Shown here in pieces: positions 29,336 through 30,842 of a stretch of 57,014 bases of DNA (position 1 is the first letter of the stretch; each line of letters begins with the position of its first letter). Origin of the DNA: Paraliomyxa miuraensis (lineage in GTDB: Bacteria; Myxococcota_A; Polyangia; Nannocystales; Nannocystaceae); NCBI RefSeq assembly GCF_026337845.1, contig NZ_JAOVZF010000146.1:1-57014 (forward strand). The letters are read 5' to 3'. Made by a program: the position numbers and the translations under genes. The notes below the pieces were generated by a model. That model was given only the letters and a program-made list of their open reading frames with translations. It was not told the origin of the DNA and did no database searches.

Positions 29336-29411
29336 TGGTCGGGCTGGCAGGACTCGAACCTGCGCTCTCGTGCTCCCCGAGCACGCGTCCTGGCCGCTGG
29401 ACTACAGCCCG
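29336..29411 (-). tRNA. tRNA-Pro (anticodon GGG)
   Basis: Reverse complement folds as a cloverleaf: acceptor CGGGCUG/CAGCCCG, D-arm GUCC-AGCGGCCA-GGAC, anticodon stem CGUGC/GCACG with loop UCGGGGA, T-arm GCAGG-UUCGAGU-CCUGC, encoded CCA. Position 33 is C rather than U. Confidence 0.8.
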
Positions 29412-29427
29412 AATGTCAACCGTTGAA

Positions 29428-29504
29428 TGGTCGGCGTGGCAGGATTCGAACCTGCGCCCTCCTGCTCCCGAAACAGGTGTCCTGGACCGCTGGACTACAC
29501 GCCG
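29428..29504 (-). tRNA. tRNA-Pro (anticodon CGG)
   Basis: Reverse complement folds as a cloverleaf: acceptor CGGCGUG/CACGCCG, anticodon stem CCUGU/GCAGG with loop UUCGGGA, T-arm GCAGG-UUCGAAU-CCUGC, encoded CCA. Confidence 0.85.
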
Positions 29505-29564
29505 ATGTTCCTGGTCGAGCCGGGAGCGACCCCTTCGATGGGGCCGCCCCCGGCTCGATGTCGT

Positions 29565-30716
29565 TCACCCGCCGACCTCGGTCACGAAGCCGGCGCCCAC
29601 GGTGCGCCCACCCTCGCGGATGGCGAACCGCATCCCGGGCTCACAGGCCACGGGCTTGTCGAGGCGGAAGGCAATCTCCGCGCGCTCGCCGGGGCTCACG
29701 CTGCCGCGCTCGCCCACGTCGAGGGTGGCCGACACGTCCGCCGCCCCGAAGTGGAGCTGCGGGCGGTAGCCGGTGCCGAACGGAGTGTGGCGCCCGCCTT
29801 CCTTGGCGCTGAGGGTGATCACCTCGGCCTTGCCCGTGGCGTGGGGCCGCAGGCTGCCCGGTGCGATGACCACCTGACCACGCTCCACCCCGTCGCGCTC
29901 GACCCCGCGGAGCAAGAGCCCCACGTTGAGGCCGGCGTCGGCCGACGGAATGTTGCGGTGGAACGCCTGGATGCCGGTCACGACCGCCGACACCGCCTTG
30001 CCCTCGCTGCGACCCACCACCTCGATGGTGGCCCCCAGCGGAAGGCATCCCCGCTCCACTCGACCGGTCACCACCGTGCCGCGCCCGGGGATCGTGCAGA
30101 CCCCCTCGATGGGCATGAGGAACGGCGCCTCGAGGTCGCGCGTGGGAACGGGAAAGCGCGTGTCCATCACCTCCACCAGCTGCTCGATGCAGGCCTCGTC
30201 GGTGCCCTGCAAGGCTCGCAGCGCCGAGCCCCGCACGAACGGCACGTCGTGATAGCCATAGGCGCCGAGCAGCTCCTGCACCTCGAGCTCGACCAAGTCG
30301 AGCATCTCCTGGTCGGCGATGTCGACCTTGTTGACGAACACGACGAGGTGCTCGACCCCGACCTGCCGCGCGAGCACCACGTGCTCCCGCGTCTGCGGCT
30401 GCAGGCCCTGGCTGCCGTCGACCAGCAGGATCGCCCCGTCCATCTGCGAGGCACCCGTGATCATGTTCTTGACGTAGTCGGCGTGGCCGGGGCAGTCGAT
30501 GTGGGCGTAGTGACGGGTCGCCGACTCGTACTGCACGTGCGAGGCGTTGATGGTGATCCCCCGCTCCTTCTCCTCCTTGGCGTTGTCGATCTCGTCGAAG
30601 GCCCGCGCGTGACCCCCGTGTCGCGAGGCCATCGCCTTGGTGATGGCCGCGGTGAGGGTGGTCTTGCCGTGGTCGACGTGTCCGATGGTCCCAACGTTGA
30701 TGTGCTGCTTGTTCAT
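29565..30716 (-). CDS. tuf: Elongation factor Tu family GTPase. A divergent 383-aa paralog.
   Basis: GHVDHGKTT (G1), RGITI (G2), DCPGH (G3), NKVD (G4), SAL (G5), and domains 2/3 ([33 protein letters not shown]). Compared with canonical EF-Tu it lacks ~10 N-terminal residues and has many substitutions in domain 1 C-terminal and domain 2. Confidence 0.92.
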
Positions 30717-30798
30717 GGGTCTTGCCTGCTTCACTGCTGACGAAGGAATCGATCGGCCCTCGCATCGTGCTCGCGGCAGGAGCACGCACGTGGACCCC

Positions 30799-30842
30799 GG
30801 GCCCCGGCACCGCGCTCGCACTCGGCCGCGGTGCCGGGGCCC
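30799..30842. promoter_or_regulatory. Perfect 16-bp GC-rich inverted repeat (GGGCCCCGGCACCGCG / CGCGGTGCCGGGGCCC) with a 12-nt loop. It lies ~85 nt upstream of the EF-Tu start on the minus strand.
   Basis: Direct reading. No U-tract on either strand, so it is not a canonical intrinsic terminator. Confidence 0.6.

What the first reader, a model, noticed from the sequence alone, without database searches (positions are those of the whole stretch)
29336..30842. Divergent EF-Tu paralog immediately followed by two tRNA-Pro genes (CGG and GGG)
The 383-aa EF-Tu keeps all G1-G5 motifs and domains 2/3. It lacks ~10 N-terminal residues and differs from canonical Tuf in many positions (e.g. [16 protein letters not shown] versus the universal VVAATDGPMPQTREH, and the domain-2 surface). 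It is not in the str operon context (fusA-tuf) or the tufB context (secE-nusG). Instead two tRNA-Pro genes lie 60 nt and 152 nt downstream on the same strand, which looks like a dedicated EF-Tu plus tRNA-Pro unit. A Ser/Thr kinase operon converges on this locus from the other strand. Divergent EF-Tu copies are known as antibiotic-resistant or specialised paralogs, and EF-Tu is a frequent target of kinases and toxins, so the unit may have a specialised or regulatory translation role.
Basis: partly seen in the sequence, partly recalled or inferred. Interest (0 to 1): 0.6.

Follow-up and report, generated by a model that had tools for sequence, protein, structure and literature searches.

The report
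Phage-linked spare EF-Tu with tRNAs
The myxobacterium Paraliomyxa miuraensis carries, next to two proline tRNA genes, an intact but very divergent copy of EF-Tu (the protein that brings charged tRNAs to the ribosome); it belongs to an uncharacterised EF-Tu branch otherwise found inside large tRNA gene arrays of huge phages and mobile islands, so it looks like a spare general translation factor, not a proline-specific one.

Summary
A 383-aa EF-Tu-like gene (29565-30716, minus strand) is followed by tRNA-Pro(CGG) and tRNA-Pro(GGG), outside any str or tufB context, with an ECF-sigma/Ser-Thr-kinase operon converging on it.

The protein is 57% identical to E. coli EF-Tu and 54-55% to Myxococcaceae EF-Tu. 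It is under purifying selection (dN/dS 0.15-0.24).

It belongs to a distinct clade (100/100 bootstraps) marked by a 7-residue N-terminal truncation and by D109Q, M112Q, E259Q, F304G and R333G, plus D216G and F218C/H in the aminoacyl pocket.

Members of this clade sit on 370-620 kb viral contigs and in a chromosomal island, embedded in same-strand arrays of 10-32 tRNA genes of all specificities. RNA-repair genes (CCA-adding enzyme, RtcB, PcfJ, HNH) lie beside them.

An Enhygromyxa chromosomal tRNA-Tyr plus EF-Tu cassette is near-identical, non-coding leader included, to one on a 618-kb viral contig.

The tRNA-Pro link is kept in 6 of 9 closest relatives and is absent or replaced elsewhere, so a proline-dedicated factor is not supported.

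Best reading: a long-resident spare general EF-Tu of a phage- and tRNA-array-associated lineage.

Not verified: a canonical tuf in the same genome, expression, and activity.

The parts
29565..30716 (-). EF-Tu paralog (383 aa), member of the N-terminally truncated clade X
   Evidence: ORF and sequence. Pfam and NCBIfam hits. PDB phmmer hit to EF-Tu, E=5e-143. Clade signature residues. Clade monophyly 100/100. dN/dS 0.15-0.24.
30799..30844 (-). 5' leader hairpin (16-bp GC-rich stem), 83 nt upstream of the ATG
   Evidence: MFE -45 kcal/mol, z -4.8. Conserved in 7 orthologous loci with 98% of cells paired, 6 pairs changed on both sides and 0/500 shuffles as good. The G-U pairs fit only the sense strand. 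The upstream gene is divergent, so this is not that gene's terminator. No Rfam family matches.
29515..29558 (-). 19-bp GC hairpin between the stop codon and the first tRNA, with no U tract. Terminator-like or a 3'-end stabiliser or processing element.
   Evidence: MFE -44.5 kcal/mol, z -7.4. An equivalent hairpin follows the stop codon in all orthologues, with or without tRNAs downstream. The simple terminator scan found nothing because there is no T run.
29428..29504 (-). tRNA-Pro(CGG), CCA encoded
   Evidence: ARAGORN. Rfam tRNA 68.3 bits. C1-G72, A73, G35 and G36 read from the sequence.
29336..29411 (-). tRNA-Pro(GGG), CCA encoded
   Evidence: ARAGORN. Rfam 63.4 bits. The MFE structure is a cloverleaf. 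97% identical to the tRNA at the same position in L088.
25067..29265 (+). Context only: ECF sigma factor (25067-25741), Ser/Thr kinase with TPR repeats (25823-28933) and an overlapping 111-aa ORF (28930-29265), converging on the tRNAs
   Evidence: Pfam. Sigma and kinase homologues lie near the orthologue in L081, L084, L090 and L176. No functional link has been shown.
30939..32408 (+). Context only: divergently transcribed Pro/Ala/Ser-rich tandem-repeat protein, a conserved upstream neighbour
   Evidence: ORF. Repeats of period 69 nt. No Pfam hit. Homologues lie upstream of the orthologue in L081, L088, L089, L090 and L176.

Best explanation
The gene encodes a functional, ribosome-dependent aminoacyl-tRNA carrier. 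It is a second, spare EF-Tu of a distinct lineage (here called clade X).

Clade X is found mainly in tRNA-rich translation and RNA-repair modules of huge phages and of horizontally spread long tRNA arrays. It has also become a long-resident chromosomal gene in Nannocystaceae.

The two tRNA-Pro genes are what this lineage keeps of the family's habitual tRNA neighbourhood. They are not partners of a proline-specific factor.

The gene has its own structured 5' leader and a strong 3' hairpin. The tRNAs start 11 nt after that hairpin, so they are probably made by read-through and processing.

Inferred, not shown: the factor is conditionally used to keep elongation going when the housekeeping EF-Tu or tRNA pool is compromised (toxins, antibiotics, phage, translational stress). 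Its remodelled aminoacyl pocket and domain junction would make it differ from the housekeeping factor in sensitivity or substrate tolerance.
For: Shown:
- Full-length EF-Tu architecture. P-loop, Thr61, His66, His84, NKxD, SAL, Asn273, Arg288 and Thr382 are all conserved.
- Purifying selection (dN/dS 0.15-0.24) and host-like GC3 of 0.93.
- Clade X is monophyletic in 100/100 NJ bootstraps and separate from canonical EF-Tu, including Myxococcaceae. Shared changes are the N-terminal truncation, D109Q, M112Q/A, E259Q, F304G/A and R333G.
- Clade X genes lie on IMG/VR contigs of 372-619 kb among 11-18 tRNAs (L211, L213, L216, L246). They also lie in metagenome contigs with up to 32 same-strand tRNAs (L110, L105, L149).
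- In a 3.72-Mb contig the gene sits in an island: 6 tRNAs, EF-Tu, 12 tRNAs, a Ro60-type vWA-domain protein, HNH, PcfJ, RtcB.
- Neighbours in the viral loci include a CCA-adding enzyme, HAD_SAK_2, PcfJ, and PHROG families of unknown function.
- The Enhygromyxa salina chromosomal cassette (an unusual tRNA-Tyr plus EF-Tu) matches viral L216 and L182. The tRNA is 89-94% identical, the leader is shared, and the proteins are 81-84% identical.
- The window locus is chromosomal and syntenic with relatives, and its flanks hold no phage genes.
- The leader hairpin covaries. The 3' hairpin is universal in orthologues.

From the literature:
- Huge phages encode EF-Tu, EF-G and EF-Ts (PMC7162821).
- Long tRNA arrays spread horizontally, are linked to HNH and rtcB, and are induced by translational stress (PMC8421152).
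Against: - A canonical tuf in the same genome was not retrieved. The genome scan was swamped and the protein search lists only 120 hits. Paralogy therefore rests on indirect evidence.
- There are no expression or biochemical data.
- The trees are NJ only. The direction of phage-host transfer is unresolved. The viral status of the contigs rests on the IMG/VR label plus gene content; no capsid or terminase gene was seen in the 21-kb loci.
- No clade X gene occurs in 50,697 deposited phage genomes.
- The window has only two tRNAs and no HNH or RtcB neighbour. The 'remnant of an array' idea is an inference from relatives.
- Canonical tuf genes also have tRNA neighbours in 39% of sampled loci, so tRNA adjacency alone is not diagnostic.
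- The metagenome sample was selected with a motif that requires Gly216, which biases that residue's apparent frequency there.
Confidence: 0.6

Rival explanations
1. The neighbourhood is a historical accident. This is a second, divergent tuf copy, and the two tRNAs are the cell's ordinary housekeeping tRNA-Pro(CGG) and tRNA-Pro(GGG). They happen to lie downstream in this lineage. There is no functional coupling and no array ancestry.
For: Both tRNAs look normal: Rfam 63-68 bits, C1-G72, A73, G35, G36 and an encoded CCA. They read CCG and CCC, which make up 86% of Pro codons in the window. A strong hairpin separates them from the gene and is present whether or not tRNAs follow. Three close relatives lack the tRNAs. 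The flanks are ordinary chromosomal genes.
Against: tRNA neighbours recur in independent sublineages of the clade: Pro downstream, Tyr upstream, and whole arrays. The number and anticodon of the tRNA-Pro genes at this site vary among close relatives: CGG+GGG, CGG only, TGG only, or all three. That pattern fits dispensable extra copies better than sole essential genes. Only 11 nt separate the hairpin from the first tRNA, which leaves no room for an own promoter.
Confidence: 0.2
2. An antibiotic-insensitive EF-Tu in the manner of Streptomyces Tuf3. It would protect translation from EF-Tu-targeting compounds (elfamycins, pulvomycin, thiopeptides) made by the cell or by its competitors.
For: Divergent spare EF-Tu copies with this role are known (own knowledge: Tuf3). 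R333G (119/119) and T334A (107/119) fall at positions where pulvomycin-resistance mutations were reported (own knowledge: R333C, T334A). The window-like group also has L120V.
Against: Kirromycin and enacyloxin positions Q124, G316, Q329, A375 and E378 are canonical. GE2270A positions V226, G257 and G275 are canonical. No biosynthetic genes were found among the neighbours scanned. The same substitutions occur in phage-borne members, where self-resistance makes no sense. Sequences with an actinobacterial Tuf3-like N-terminus fall outside clade X.
Confidence: 0.1
3. One reading: a dedicated EF-Tu plus tRNA-Pro unit, that is, a factor specialised for Pro-tRNAPro.
For: The tRNA-Pro genes directly follow the gene, and this is kept in 6 of 9 closest relatives. 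L176 has all three Pro isoacceptors. The aminoacyl pocket is altered: D216G, F218C, E259Q, R262H.
Against: The same pocket changes occur in clade members embedded in arrays that encode tRNAs for nearly all amino acids. Sister lineages pair the gene with tRNA-Tyr or with no tRNA. Nothing in the two tRNAs departs from ordinary tRNA-Pro identity elements.
Confidence: 0.05
4. It is not an elongation factor any more. It would be a decoy or sensor for EF-Tu-targeting toxins, kinases or phage proteins, or have some other moonlighting role.
For: It evolves much faster than a canonical EF-Tu: about 10% amino-acid divergence at dS of about 0.35. A kinase operon is a syntenic neighbour. The N-terminus and the domain junction are remodelled.
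Against: All GTPase motifs, catalytic His84, switch I, the tRNA 3'-end and T-stem contact residues (H66, N273, R288, Q329, E378) and the helix-D sequence are kept. No PADLOC defence model matches.
Confidence: 0.03
5. It is the organism's only, housekeeping EF-Tu.
Against: It lies outside the ribosomal-protein operons. dN/dS is 0.15-0.24. Other Myxococcota have canonical EF-Tu that is only 54-55% identical to it. Clade members occur on phage contigs.
Confidence: 0.02

Closest known systems
Translation genes of huge phages (Al-Shayeb et al. 2020, PMC7162821)
   Same: Huge phages carry many tRNAs, a CCA-adding enzyme, tRNA repair genes and elongation factors G, Tu and Ts. The viral relatives found here (372-619 kb contigs) show exactly this setting.
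   Different: The window gene is chromosomal, has host-like GC, and sits among ordinary myxobacterial genes with only two tRNAs. The paper gives one sentence on EF-Tu. It describes no clade, no signature residues and no link to cellular genomes.
[quoted passage not shown] 2021, PMC8421152)
   Same: These are horizontally spread arrays of up to 43 tRNA genes, with HNH homing endonuclease and rtcB neighbours, induced by translational stress. Island L292 (18 tRNAs, HNH, PcfJ, RtcB) fits this description and holds a clade X EF-Tu.
   Different: No EF-Tu is mentioned in that work. The window has two tRNAs, not an array, and no HNH or RtcB neighbour.
E. coli tRNA-tufB operon (thrU-tyrU-glyT-thrT-tufB; own knowledge)
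   Same: A tuf gene physically linked to same-strand tRNA genes. 36 of 93 canonical tuf loci sampled here have a same-strand tRNA within 500 nt.
   Different: There the tRNAs lie upstream, are Thr, Tyr, Gly and Thr, and are followed by secE-nusG. Here two tRNA-Pro genes lie downstream, behind a hairpin, and the EF-Tu is only 57% identical to the canonical one.
Streptomyces Tuf3 and other antibiotic-insensitive EF-Tu paralogs (own knowledge)
   Same: A spare, divergent (about 55-65% identity), stand-alone tuf copy outside the ribosomal operons. Positions 333 and 334 are changed.
   Different: It is a different clade. Kirromycin and GE2270A contact residues are canonical. No biosynthetic cluster is nearby. 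Phage-borne members exist.
Dedicated EF-Tu-like factors (SelB for Sec-tRNASec; nematode mitochondrial EF-Tu2 for Ser-tRNA; own knowledge)
   Same: The idea of an EF-Tu homologue with a remodelled aminoacyl pocket that is linked to particular tRNAs.
   Different: There is no extra domain and no fixed tRNA partner across the family. The family co-occurs with tRNAs of all specificities.

Membership tests
EF-Tu (translational GTPase; TIGR00485 / PRK12736) | G1-G5 motifs and catalytic His84 | tested here: met
   GHVDHGKT 12-19, Thr55, DCPGH 74-78, NKVD 129-132 and SAL 164-166, read from the sequence. H84, T61 and H66 are invariant across the clade.
EF-Tu (translational GTPase; TIGR00485 / PRK12736) | Three-domain architecture over the full length | tested here: met
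   Pfam GTP_EFTU 3-189, D2 213-283, D3 289-381. The PDB EF-Tu alignment covers 2-381 against 9-392, E=5e-143.
EF-Tu (translational GTPase; TIGR00485 / PRK12736) | Score above the curated cutoff | tested here: inconclusive
   Subfamily models pass (532.6 against 452; 531.2 against 449). The equivalog TIGR00485 narrowly fails (520.6 against 522.4).
EF-Tu (translational GTPase; TIGR00485 / PRK12736) | Canonical N-terminus (about 8 residues including Arg7) and canonical aminoacyl pocket (E215, D216, F218, E259) | tested here: not met
   The N-terminal 7 residues are absent. D216G, F218C and E259Q are present; E215, T228 and N273 are kept.
EF-Tu (translational GTPase; TIGR00485 / PRK12736) | Delivers aa-tRNA to the ribosome in a GTP-dependent way | not testable with these tools
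   Needs biochemistry.
Housekeeping tuf (str operon or tufB operon copy) | Context fusA-tuf-rpsJ, or tRNA(Thr-Tyr-Gly-Thr)-tuf-secE-nusG | tested here: not met
   The neighbours are an ECF sigma, a Ser/Thr kinase, a repeat protein and proteins of unknown function. The same holds in 11 orthologous loci.
Clade X (N-truncated, phage- and array-associated EF-Tu; defined here) | N-terminal truncation plus D109Q, M112Q/A, E259Q, F304G/A and R333G | tested here: met
   The window protein has all of them.
Clade X (N-truncated, phage- and array-associated EF-Tu; defined here) | Groups with the clade to the exclusion of canonical EF-Tu | tested here: met
   NJ with Kimura distances, 108 sequences, 380 columns: clade X recovered in 100/100 bootstraps and the canonical group in 85/100.
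Huge-phage / L-array tRNA module | Embedded in a long same-strand tRNA array (ten or more genes) | tested here: not met
   The whole 57-kb window holds only two tRNAs. Relatives do meet this feature.
Huge-phage / L-array tRNA module | HNH, RtcB, CCA-adding or other RNA-repair neighbours | tested here: inconclusive
   None is adjacent. A tRNA_bind plus RNA_ligase protein lies 4.4 kb away (23405-24904). In Nannocystis pusilla, RtcR-RtcB-RtcA lies 1.2 kb downstream.
Elfamycin / thiopeptide-resistant EF-Tu (Tuf3-like) | Substitutions at kirromycin (120, 124, 160, 316, 329, 375, 378) or GE2270A (226, 257, 275) positions | tested here: not met
   All are canonical except L120V. The position list comes from own knowledge.
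Elfamycin / thiopeptide-resistant EF-Tu (Tuf3-like) | Substitutions at pulvomycin positions (230, 333, 334) | tested here: inconclusive
   R230 is kept; R333G and T334A are present. These changes are clade-wide and also occur in phage copies.
Dedicated factor-tRNA pair (SelB-like logic) | The same tRNA species is linked across the family | tested here: not met
   Pro in 6 of 9 closest loci, Tyr in the Enhygromyxa-like group, none in L081 and L083-L086, and all amino-acid types in the arrays.

The most novel reading that the evidence does not exclude
Clade X EF-Tu, its companion tRNAs and the RNA-repair genes form a mobile translation back-up kit. Huge phages would use it to keep translating after host defences cleave tRNAs or disable EF-Tu. 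Nannocystaceae would have domesticated it as a stress- or infection-induced spare elongation system. Its remodelled aminoacyl pocket and domain 1-3 junction would make the factor insensitive to agents that inactivate housekeeping EF-Tu, or tolerant of damaged or unusual aminoacyl-tRNAs.
Probability: 0.25. Interest if true: 0.8.

Novelty: new variant of a known kind. Interest (0 to 1): 0.55.

Why it matters
EF-Tu is among the most conserved and most abundant bacterial proteins. Natural variants with a rebuilt aminoacyl pocket are rare and are sought after for genetic-code engineering.

This work defines a large, uncharacterised EF-Tu lineage. Each of two searches filled the list of 120 database clusters. 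It has fixed signature changes and travels with tRNA arrays on huge phages and genomic islands. It also lives as a resident gene in a family of myxobacteria that can be grown in culture.

That gives a tractable host (Paraliomyxa, Enhygromyxa, Nannocystis) in which to ask three questions: what phage-type elongation factors do, whether supernumerary tRNAs and a spare EF-Tu act together under translational stress, and how such modules move between phages and cells.

Tried and rejected
1. Genome-collection scan with the protein. Neither the orthologues nor the same-genome canonical tuf could be fetched this way.

All 120 listed hits were Myxococcaceae-like at 90% identity or more, so it was useless for that purpose. 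It did supply Myxococcota canonical sequences for comparison.

3. A viral-collection scan for the window-type tRNA-Pro D-arm motif. The motif occurs in several tRNA types, and only three viral tRNA-Pro genes share it. No conclusion.

4. tblastx of the window against all phage-like loci. Nothing outside the EF-Tu and tRNA region matched, so a prophage at this site is rejected.

5. PADLOC. Nothing matched the EF-Tu, the small ORF, the repeat protein or the RNA ligase. The kinases hit only generic kinase models (PD-T4-6, mad6).

6. Rfam at a permissive threshold on the leader and the intergenic regions. Only the two tRNAs were found.

7. The simple promoter and terminator scan found nothing. The hairpins lack T runs, and sigma-70 consensus is a poor model for this organism.

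8. Deposited phage genomes and plasmids. They hold only canonical EF-Tu, mostly from host contamination or chromosomes filed as plasmids.

9. Literature searches for a described EF-Tu paralog of this kind found none.

10. Structure prediction was not run. Sequence-level alignment to solved EF-Tu is already full-length, and coordinates could not have been inspected.
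Full report
**1. Observation**

The minus strand of the window carries an ORF from 30716 to 29565 ([23 protein letters not shown]...; 383 aa).

Pfam finds the EF-Tu GTP-binding domain, domain 2 and domain 3 over the full length. NCBIfam EF-Tu subfamily models pass (532.6 bits against 452). 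The equivalog model TIGR00485 just fails (520.6 against 522.4). The best solved relatives are bacterial EF-Tu structures (E=5e-143, query 2-381 aligned to 9-392).

All G motifs and the catalytic histidine are present. The N-terminus is 7 residues shorter than in canonical EF-Tu.

ARAGORN and Rfam agree on tRNA-Pro(CGG) at 29504-29428 and tRNA-Pro(GGG) at 29411-29336 on the same strand.

The exact protein is on record as 'elongation factor Tu [Paraliomyxa miuraensis]'. Its 90%-identity cluster holds one sequence on one contig, so no copy more than 90% identical is on record.

The neighbours are an ECF sigma factor, a Ser/Thr kinase with TPR repeats and a small overlapping ORF. These converge on the tRNAs. 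A divergently transcribed Pro/Ala-rich repeat protein lies upstream. Nothing resembles the str or tufB context.

**2. How divergent it is, and whether it is alive**

The protein is 57% identical to E. coli EF-Tu and 54-55% identical to Myxococcaceae EF-Tu. Canonical EF-Tu from many phyla is 71-83% identical to E. coli. By domain, identity to E. coli is 65% (G domain), 49% (domain 2) and 49% (domain 3).

It is validated by 93-96% identity to enterobacterial-type sequences in the data and by the same register as the PDB alignment.

Against its closest orthologues, dN/dS is 0.15-0.24 and GC3 is 0.93, like the host genome. The gene is therefore maintained by selection, but it evolves far faster than a housekeeping tuf.

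I could not retrieve the canonical tuf of the same genome. 'Paralog' thus rests on context, evolutionary rate and phylogeny, not on a direct count.

**3. A distinct clade**

Comparing 119 relatives with 16 canonical sequences gives substitutions fixed in the relatives at positions that are invariant in canonical EF-Tu. In E. coli mature numbering these are:
- loss of the N-terminal residues including Arg7;
- D109Q and M112Q;
- D216G and F218C/H;
- E259Q (119/119);
- F304G;
- R333G (119/119) and T334A.

A wider comparison shows two patterns. D109Q, M112Q/A, E259Q, F304G/A and R333G define one clade (clade X). D216G and F218H/C also occur in a second N-truncated viral lineage and in other divergent groups.

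Residues for GTP hydrolysis, the tRNA 3' end and the T-stem are kept: T61, H66, H84, N273, R288, Q329, E378 and T382. The positions contacted by kirromycin and GE2270A are also canonical.

In a bootstrapped NJ analysis (108 sequences, 380 columns), clade X is recovered 100/100, the canonical group including Myxococcaceae 85/100, and the window-like subgroup 100/100.

**4. Is the tRNA-Pro link conserved?**

In the closest relatives (81-90% identity) the gene is followed by:
- tRNA-Pro(CGG) plus tRNA-Pro(GGG) in L088 and L147;
- CGG only in L089;
- TGG only in L090;
- CGG, GGG and TGG in L176;
- nothing in L081, L084 and L085.

These loci share the upstream repeat protein and a 556-aa protein. 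Several also share the sigma/kinase pair. This is therefore a stable chromosomal neighbourhood.

The Enhygromyxa/Nannocystis-like subgroup instead has tRNA-Tyr(GTA) just upstream (L082, L182, L183, L189, L128) or no tRNA (L083).

All orthologues, with or without tRNAs, have a strong GC hairpin shortly after the stop codon. In the window it lies at 29515-29558, with -44.5 kcal/mol and z -7.4. Only 11 nt separate this hairpin from the first tRNA. An independent tRNA promoter is therefore unlikely, and read-through followed by processing is the simplest model. This is an inference.

**5. The family rides with tRNA arrays**

A metagenome scan with a clade-specific DNA motif and an IMG/VR scan with the protein recovered many relatives embedded in same-strand tRNA arrays:
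- 32 tRNAs in 4.5 kb beside the gene in L110;
- 23 tRNAs in L105, 19 in L187, 18 in L152 and 17 in L149;
- 11-18 tRNAs in the viral loci L211, L213, L216 and L246, which come from contigs of 372-619 kb.

The arrays encode tRNAs for most or all amino acids, often with every isoacceptor.

Neighbouring genes include a CCA-adding enzyme, an RNA-repair HAD domain, PcfJ, a UvrD helicase, an M23 peptidase, thymidine kinase, a DNA methylase, HNH endonucleases, and PHROG families of unknown function.

A search with an array-type member filled the list of 120 clusters. Many of these lie on contigs of 250-550 kb.

One member lies in a 3.72-Mb bacterial contig, in a compact island ordered as follows: 6 tRNAs, EF-Tu, 12 tRNAs, a Ro60-type vWA protein, HNH, PcfJ, RtcB. 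Another member stands alone in a Labilithrix MAG.

This matches two published descriptions. Huge phages encode tRNAs and elongation factors G, Tu and Ts (PMC7162821). Horizontally spread long tRNA arrays have HNH and rtcB neighbours and are induced by translational stress (PMC8421152). Neither paper describes this EF-Tu lineage.

As a control, canonical tuf loci also have a same-strand tRNA within 500 nt in 36 of 93 cases, the classical tufB arrangement. The figure is 25 of 37 for loci that a crude motif rule classed as clade X. tRNA adjacency by itself is therefore ordinary for tuf genes. What is unusual is the array size and the company the gene keeps.

**6. Exchange between phages and Nannocystaceae**

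The E. salina chromosomal copy is 81-84% identical to the copies on the 618-kb viral contig L216 and on the phage-like contigs L182 and L189. That is closer than it is to the Paraliomyxa copy (74%).

The tRNA-Tyr upstream of it has an unusual sequence and is 89-94% identical to the tRNA-Tyr at the same position in L216 and L182. The non-coding leader before the start codon is also shared. L216, L182 and L189 group together 100/100, and group with E. salina 62/100.

A tRNA plus EF-Tu cassette has therefore moved between a huge phage-like element and a Nannocystaceae chromosome. The direction is not resolved.

The window locus itself shows no phage genes in its flanks and has host-like composition. 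It has no counterpart above 73% identity in IMG/VR. It is an old resident.

No clade X gene is present in 50,697 deposited phage genomes or 72,556 plasmids.

**7. Regulatory anatomy**

A 16-bp GC-rich hairpin lies 83 nt upstream of the start codon (30799-30844; -45 kcal/mol, z -4.8). It recurs in seven orthologous loci at variable distance from the ATG.

Across these loci 98% of cells are paired and six pairs change on both sides. No shuffle of 500 reaches the observed values, and slid registers drop to about 44% paired. Several G-U pairs would be A-C mismatches on the other strand. The structure is therefore most likely an RNA element of the EF-Tu transcript.

The upstream gene is divergent, so this is not that gene's terminator. 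No Rfam family matches. What it does (attenuation, stability or protein binding) is unknown.

**8. Interpretation**

Shown: an intact, selected EF-Tu of a separate lineage; its family's association with tRNA arrays, RNA-repair genes, huge viral contigs and islands; cassette exchange with a host chromosome; and the patchy, lineage-restricted tRNA-Pro link.

Inferred: the protein is a general aa-tRNA carrier used as a spare or conditional factor. The two tRNA-Pro genes are the local remainder of the family's tRNA neighbourhood.

The altered pocket (D216G, F218C, E259Q, R262H) and the changes at positions 109, 112, 304, 333 and 334 suggest different substrate tolerance or different sensitivity to inhibitors. 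Positions 333 and 334 are known sites of pulvomycin-resistance mutations (own knowledge). This needs biochemistry.

The proline-dedicated reading is not supported. Any role for the kinase remains untested. The Tuf3-like resistance reading is weakened by the canonical kirromycin and GE2270A sites and by the phage distribution, but pulvomycin-type insensitivity is not excluded.

**9. Limits**

- The trees are distance-based.
- The metagenome sample was selected with a motif that requires Gly216.
- Viral status rests on IMG/VR labels and local gene content.
- The same-genome canonical tuf and other tRNA-Pro copies were not checked.
- There are no expression or activity data.

Noticed in passing
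window 30939-32408 (+): A 489-aa Pro/Ala/Ser-rich protein (15% Pro) with about seven tandem copies of a 23-aa unit (SRFGTDPTVYGLEAxPAPAPASP; 69-nt period). No Pfam hit. It is a conserved divergent neighbour of the EF-Tu paralog in L081, L088-L090 and L176.
   Followed up: partly
window 23405-24904 (-): A protein combining a weak tRNA-binding domain hit (PF01588) with an RNA ligase domain (PF09414), 4.4 kb from the tRNAs on the same strand as the EF-Tu paralog. It was not found near the orthologues examined. Nannocystis pusilla instead has RtcR-RtcB-RtcA 1.2 kb downstream of its copy.
   Followed up: partly
window 28930-29265 (+): A 111-aa ORF whose ATG overlaps the kinase stop codon (ATGA), which suggests translational coupling. 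No Pfam or PADLOC hit. An independent gene caller also called it.
   Followed up: no
window 25823-28933, 34086-39134, 45426-49409 (+): Three very large Ser/Thr kinases within 25 kb: one with TPR repeats, one with an AAA_16 ATPase domain. In PADLOC they hit only generic kinase models (PD-T4-6, mad6, MkoA).
   Followed up: no
L292 9339-17788 (3.72-Mb metagenome contig): A compact chromosomal island ordered as 6 tRNAs, clade X EF-Tu, 12 tRNAs, Ro60-type vWA protein, HNH endonuclease, PcfJ-like protein, RtcB ligase. Ordinary genes flank it.
   Followed up: partly
L082 5821-5903; L216 9852-9936; L182 1048-1132: An atypical tRNA-Tyr(GTA) (UGGYGGGAACAGCCAAGGUGGCGAAGCGG...) is shared at 89-94% identity between the Enhygromyxa salina chromosome and huge viral contigs, always directly upstream of the EF-Tu paralog.
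   Followed up: partly
L227, L230, L232, L234-L239, L242 (IMG/VR), L162, L169: A second N-terminally truncated viral EF-Tu lineage (GHIDHGKTT; 59-63% identical to E. coli) lies in Ser/Leu/Tyr/Phe-rich tRNA arrays. It has D216G and F218H but lacks the clade X changes at 109, 259, 304 and 333.
   Followed up: partly
L234 9218; L110 1955; L152 10657-10734: Unusual tRNA calls in the phage-like arrays: a CTA-anticodon (amber-reading) tRNA, a four-base anticodon call, and Tyr(ATA) and Ile(AAT) calls on the opposite strand.
   Followed up: no
L213 10001-11173: In a 427-kb viral contig of 39% GC, the EF-Tu gene has GC3 of 0.60 while neighbouring ORFs have 0.2-0.4. This suggests a recent import from a GC-richer source, or strong codon selection.
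   Followed up: no
window 40763-42517 (+): A flavin-dependent tryptophan-halogenase-like protein (PF04820). It is the only secondary-metabolism-type gene seen among the neighbours scanned.
   Followed up: no
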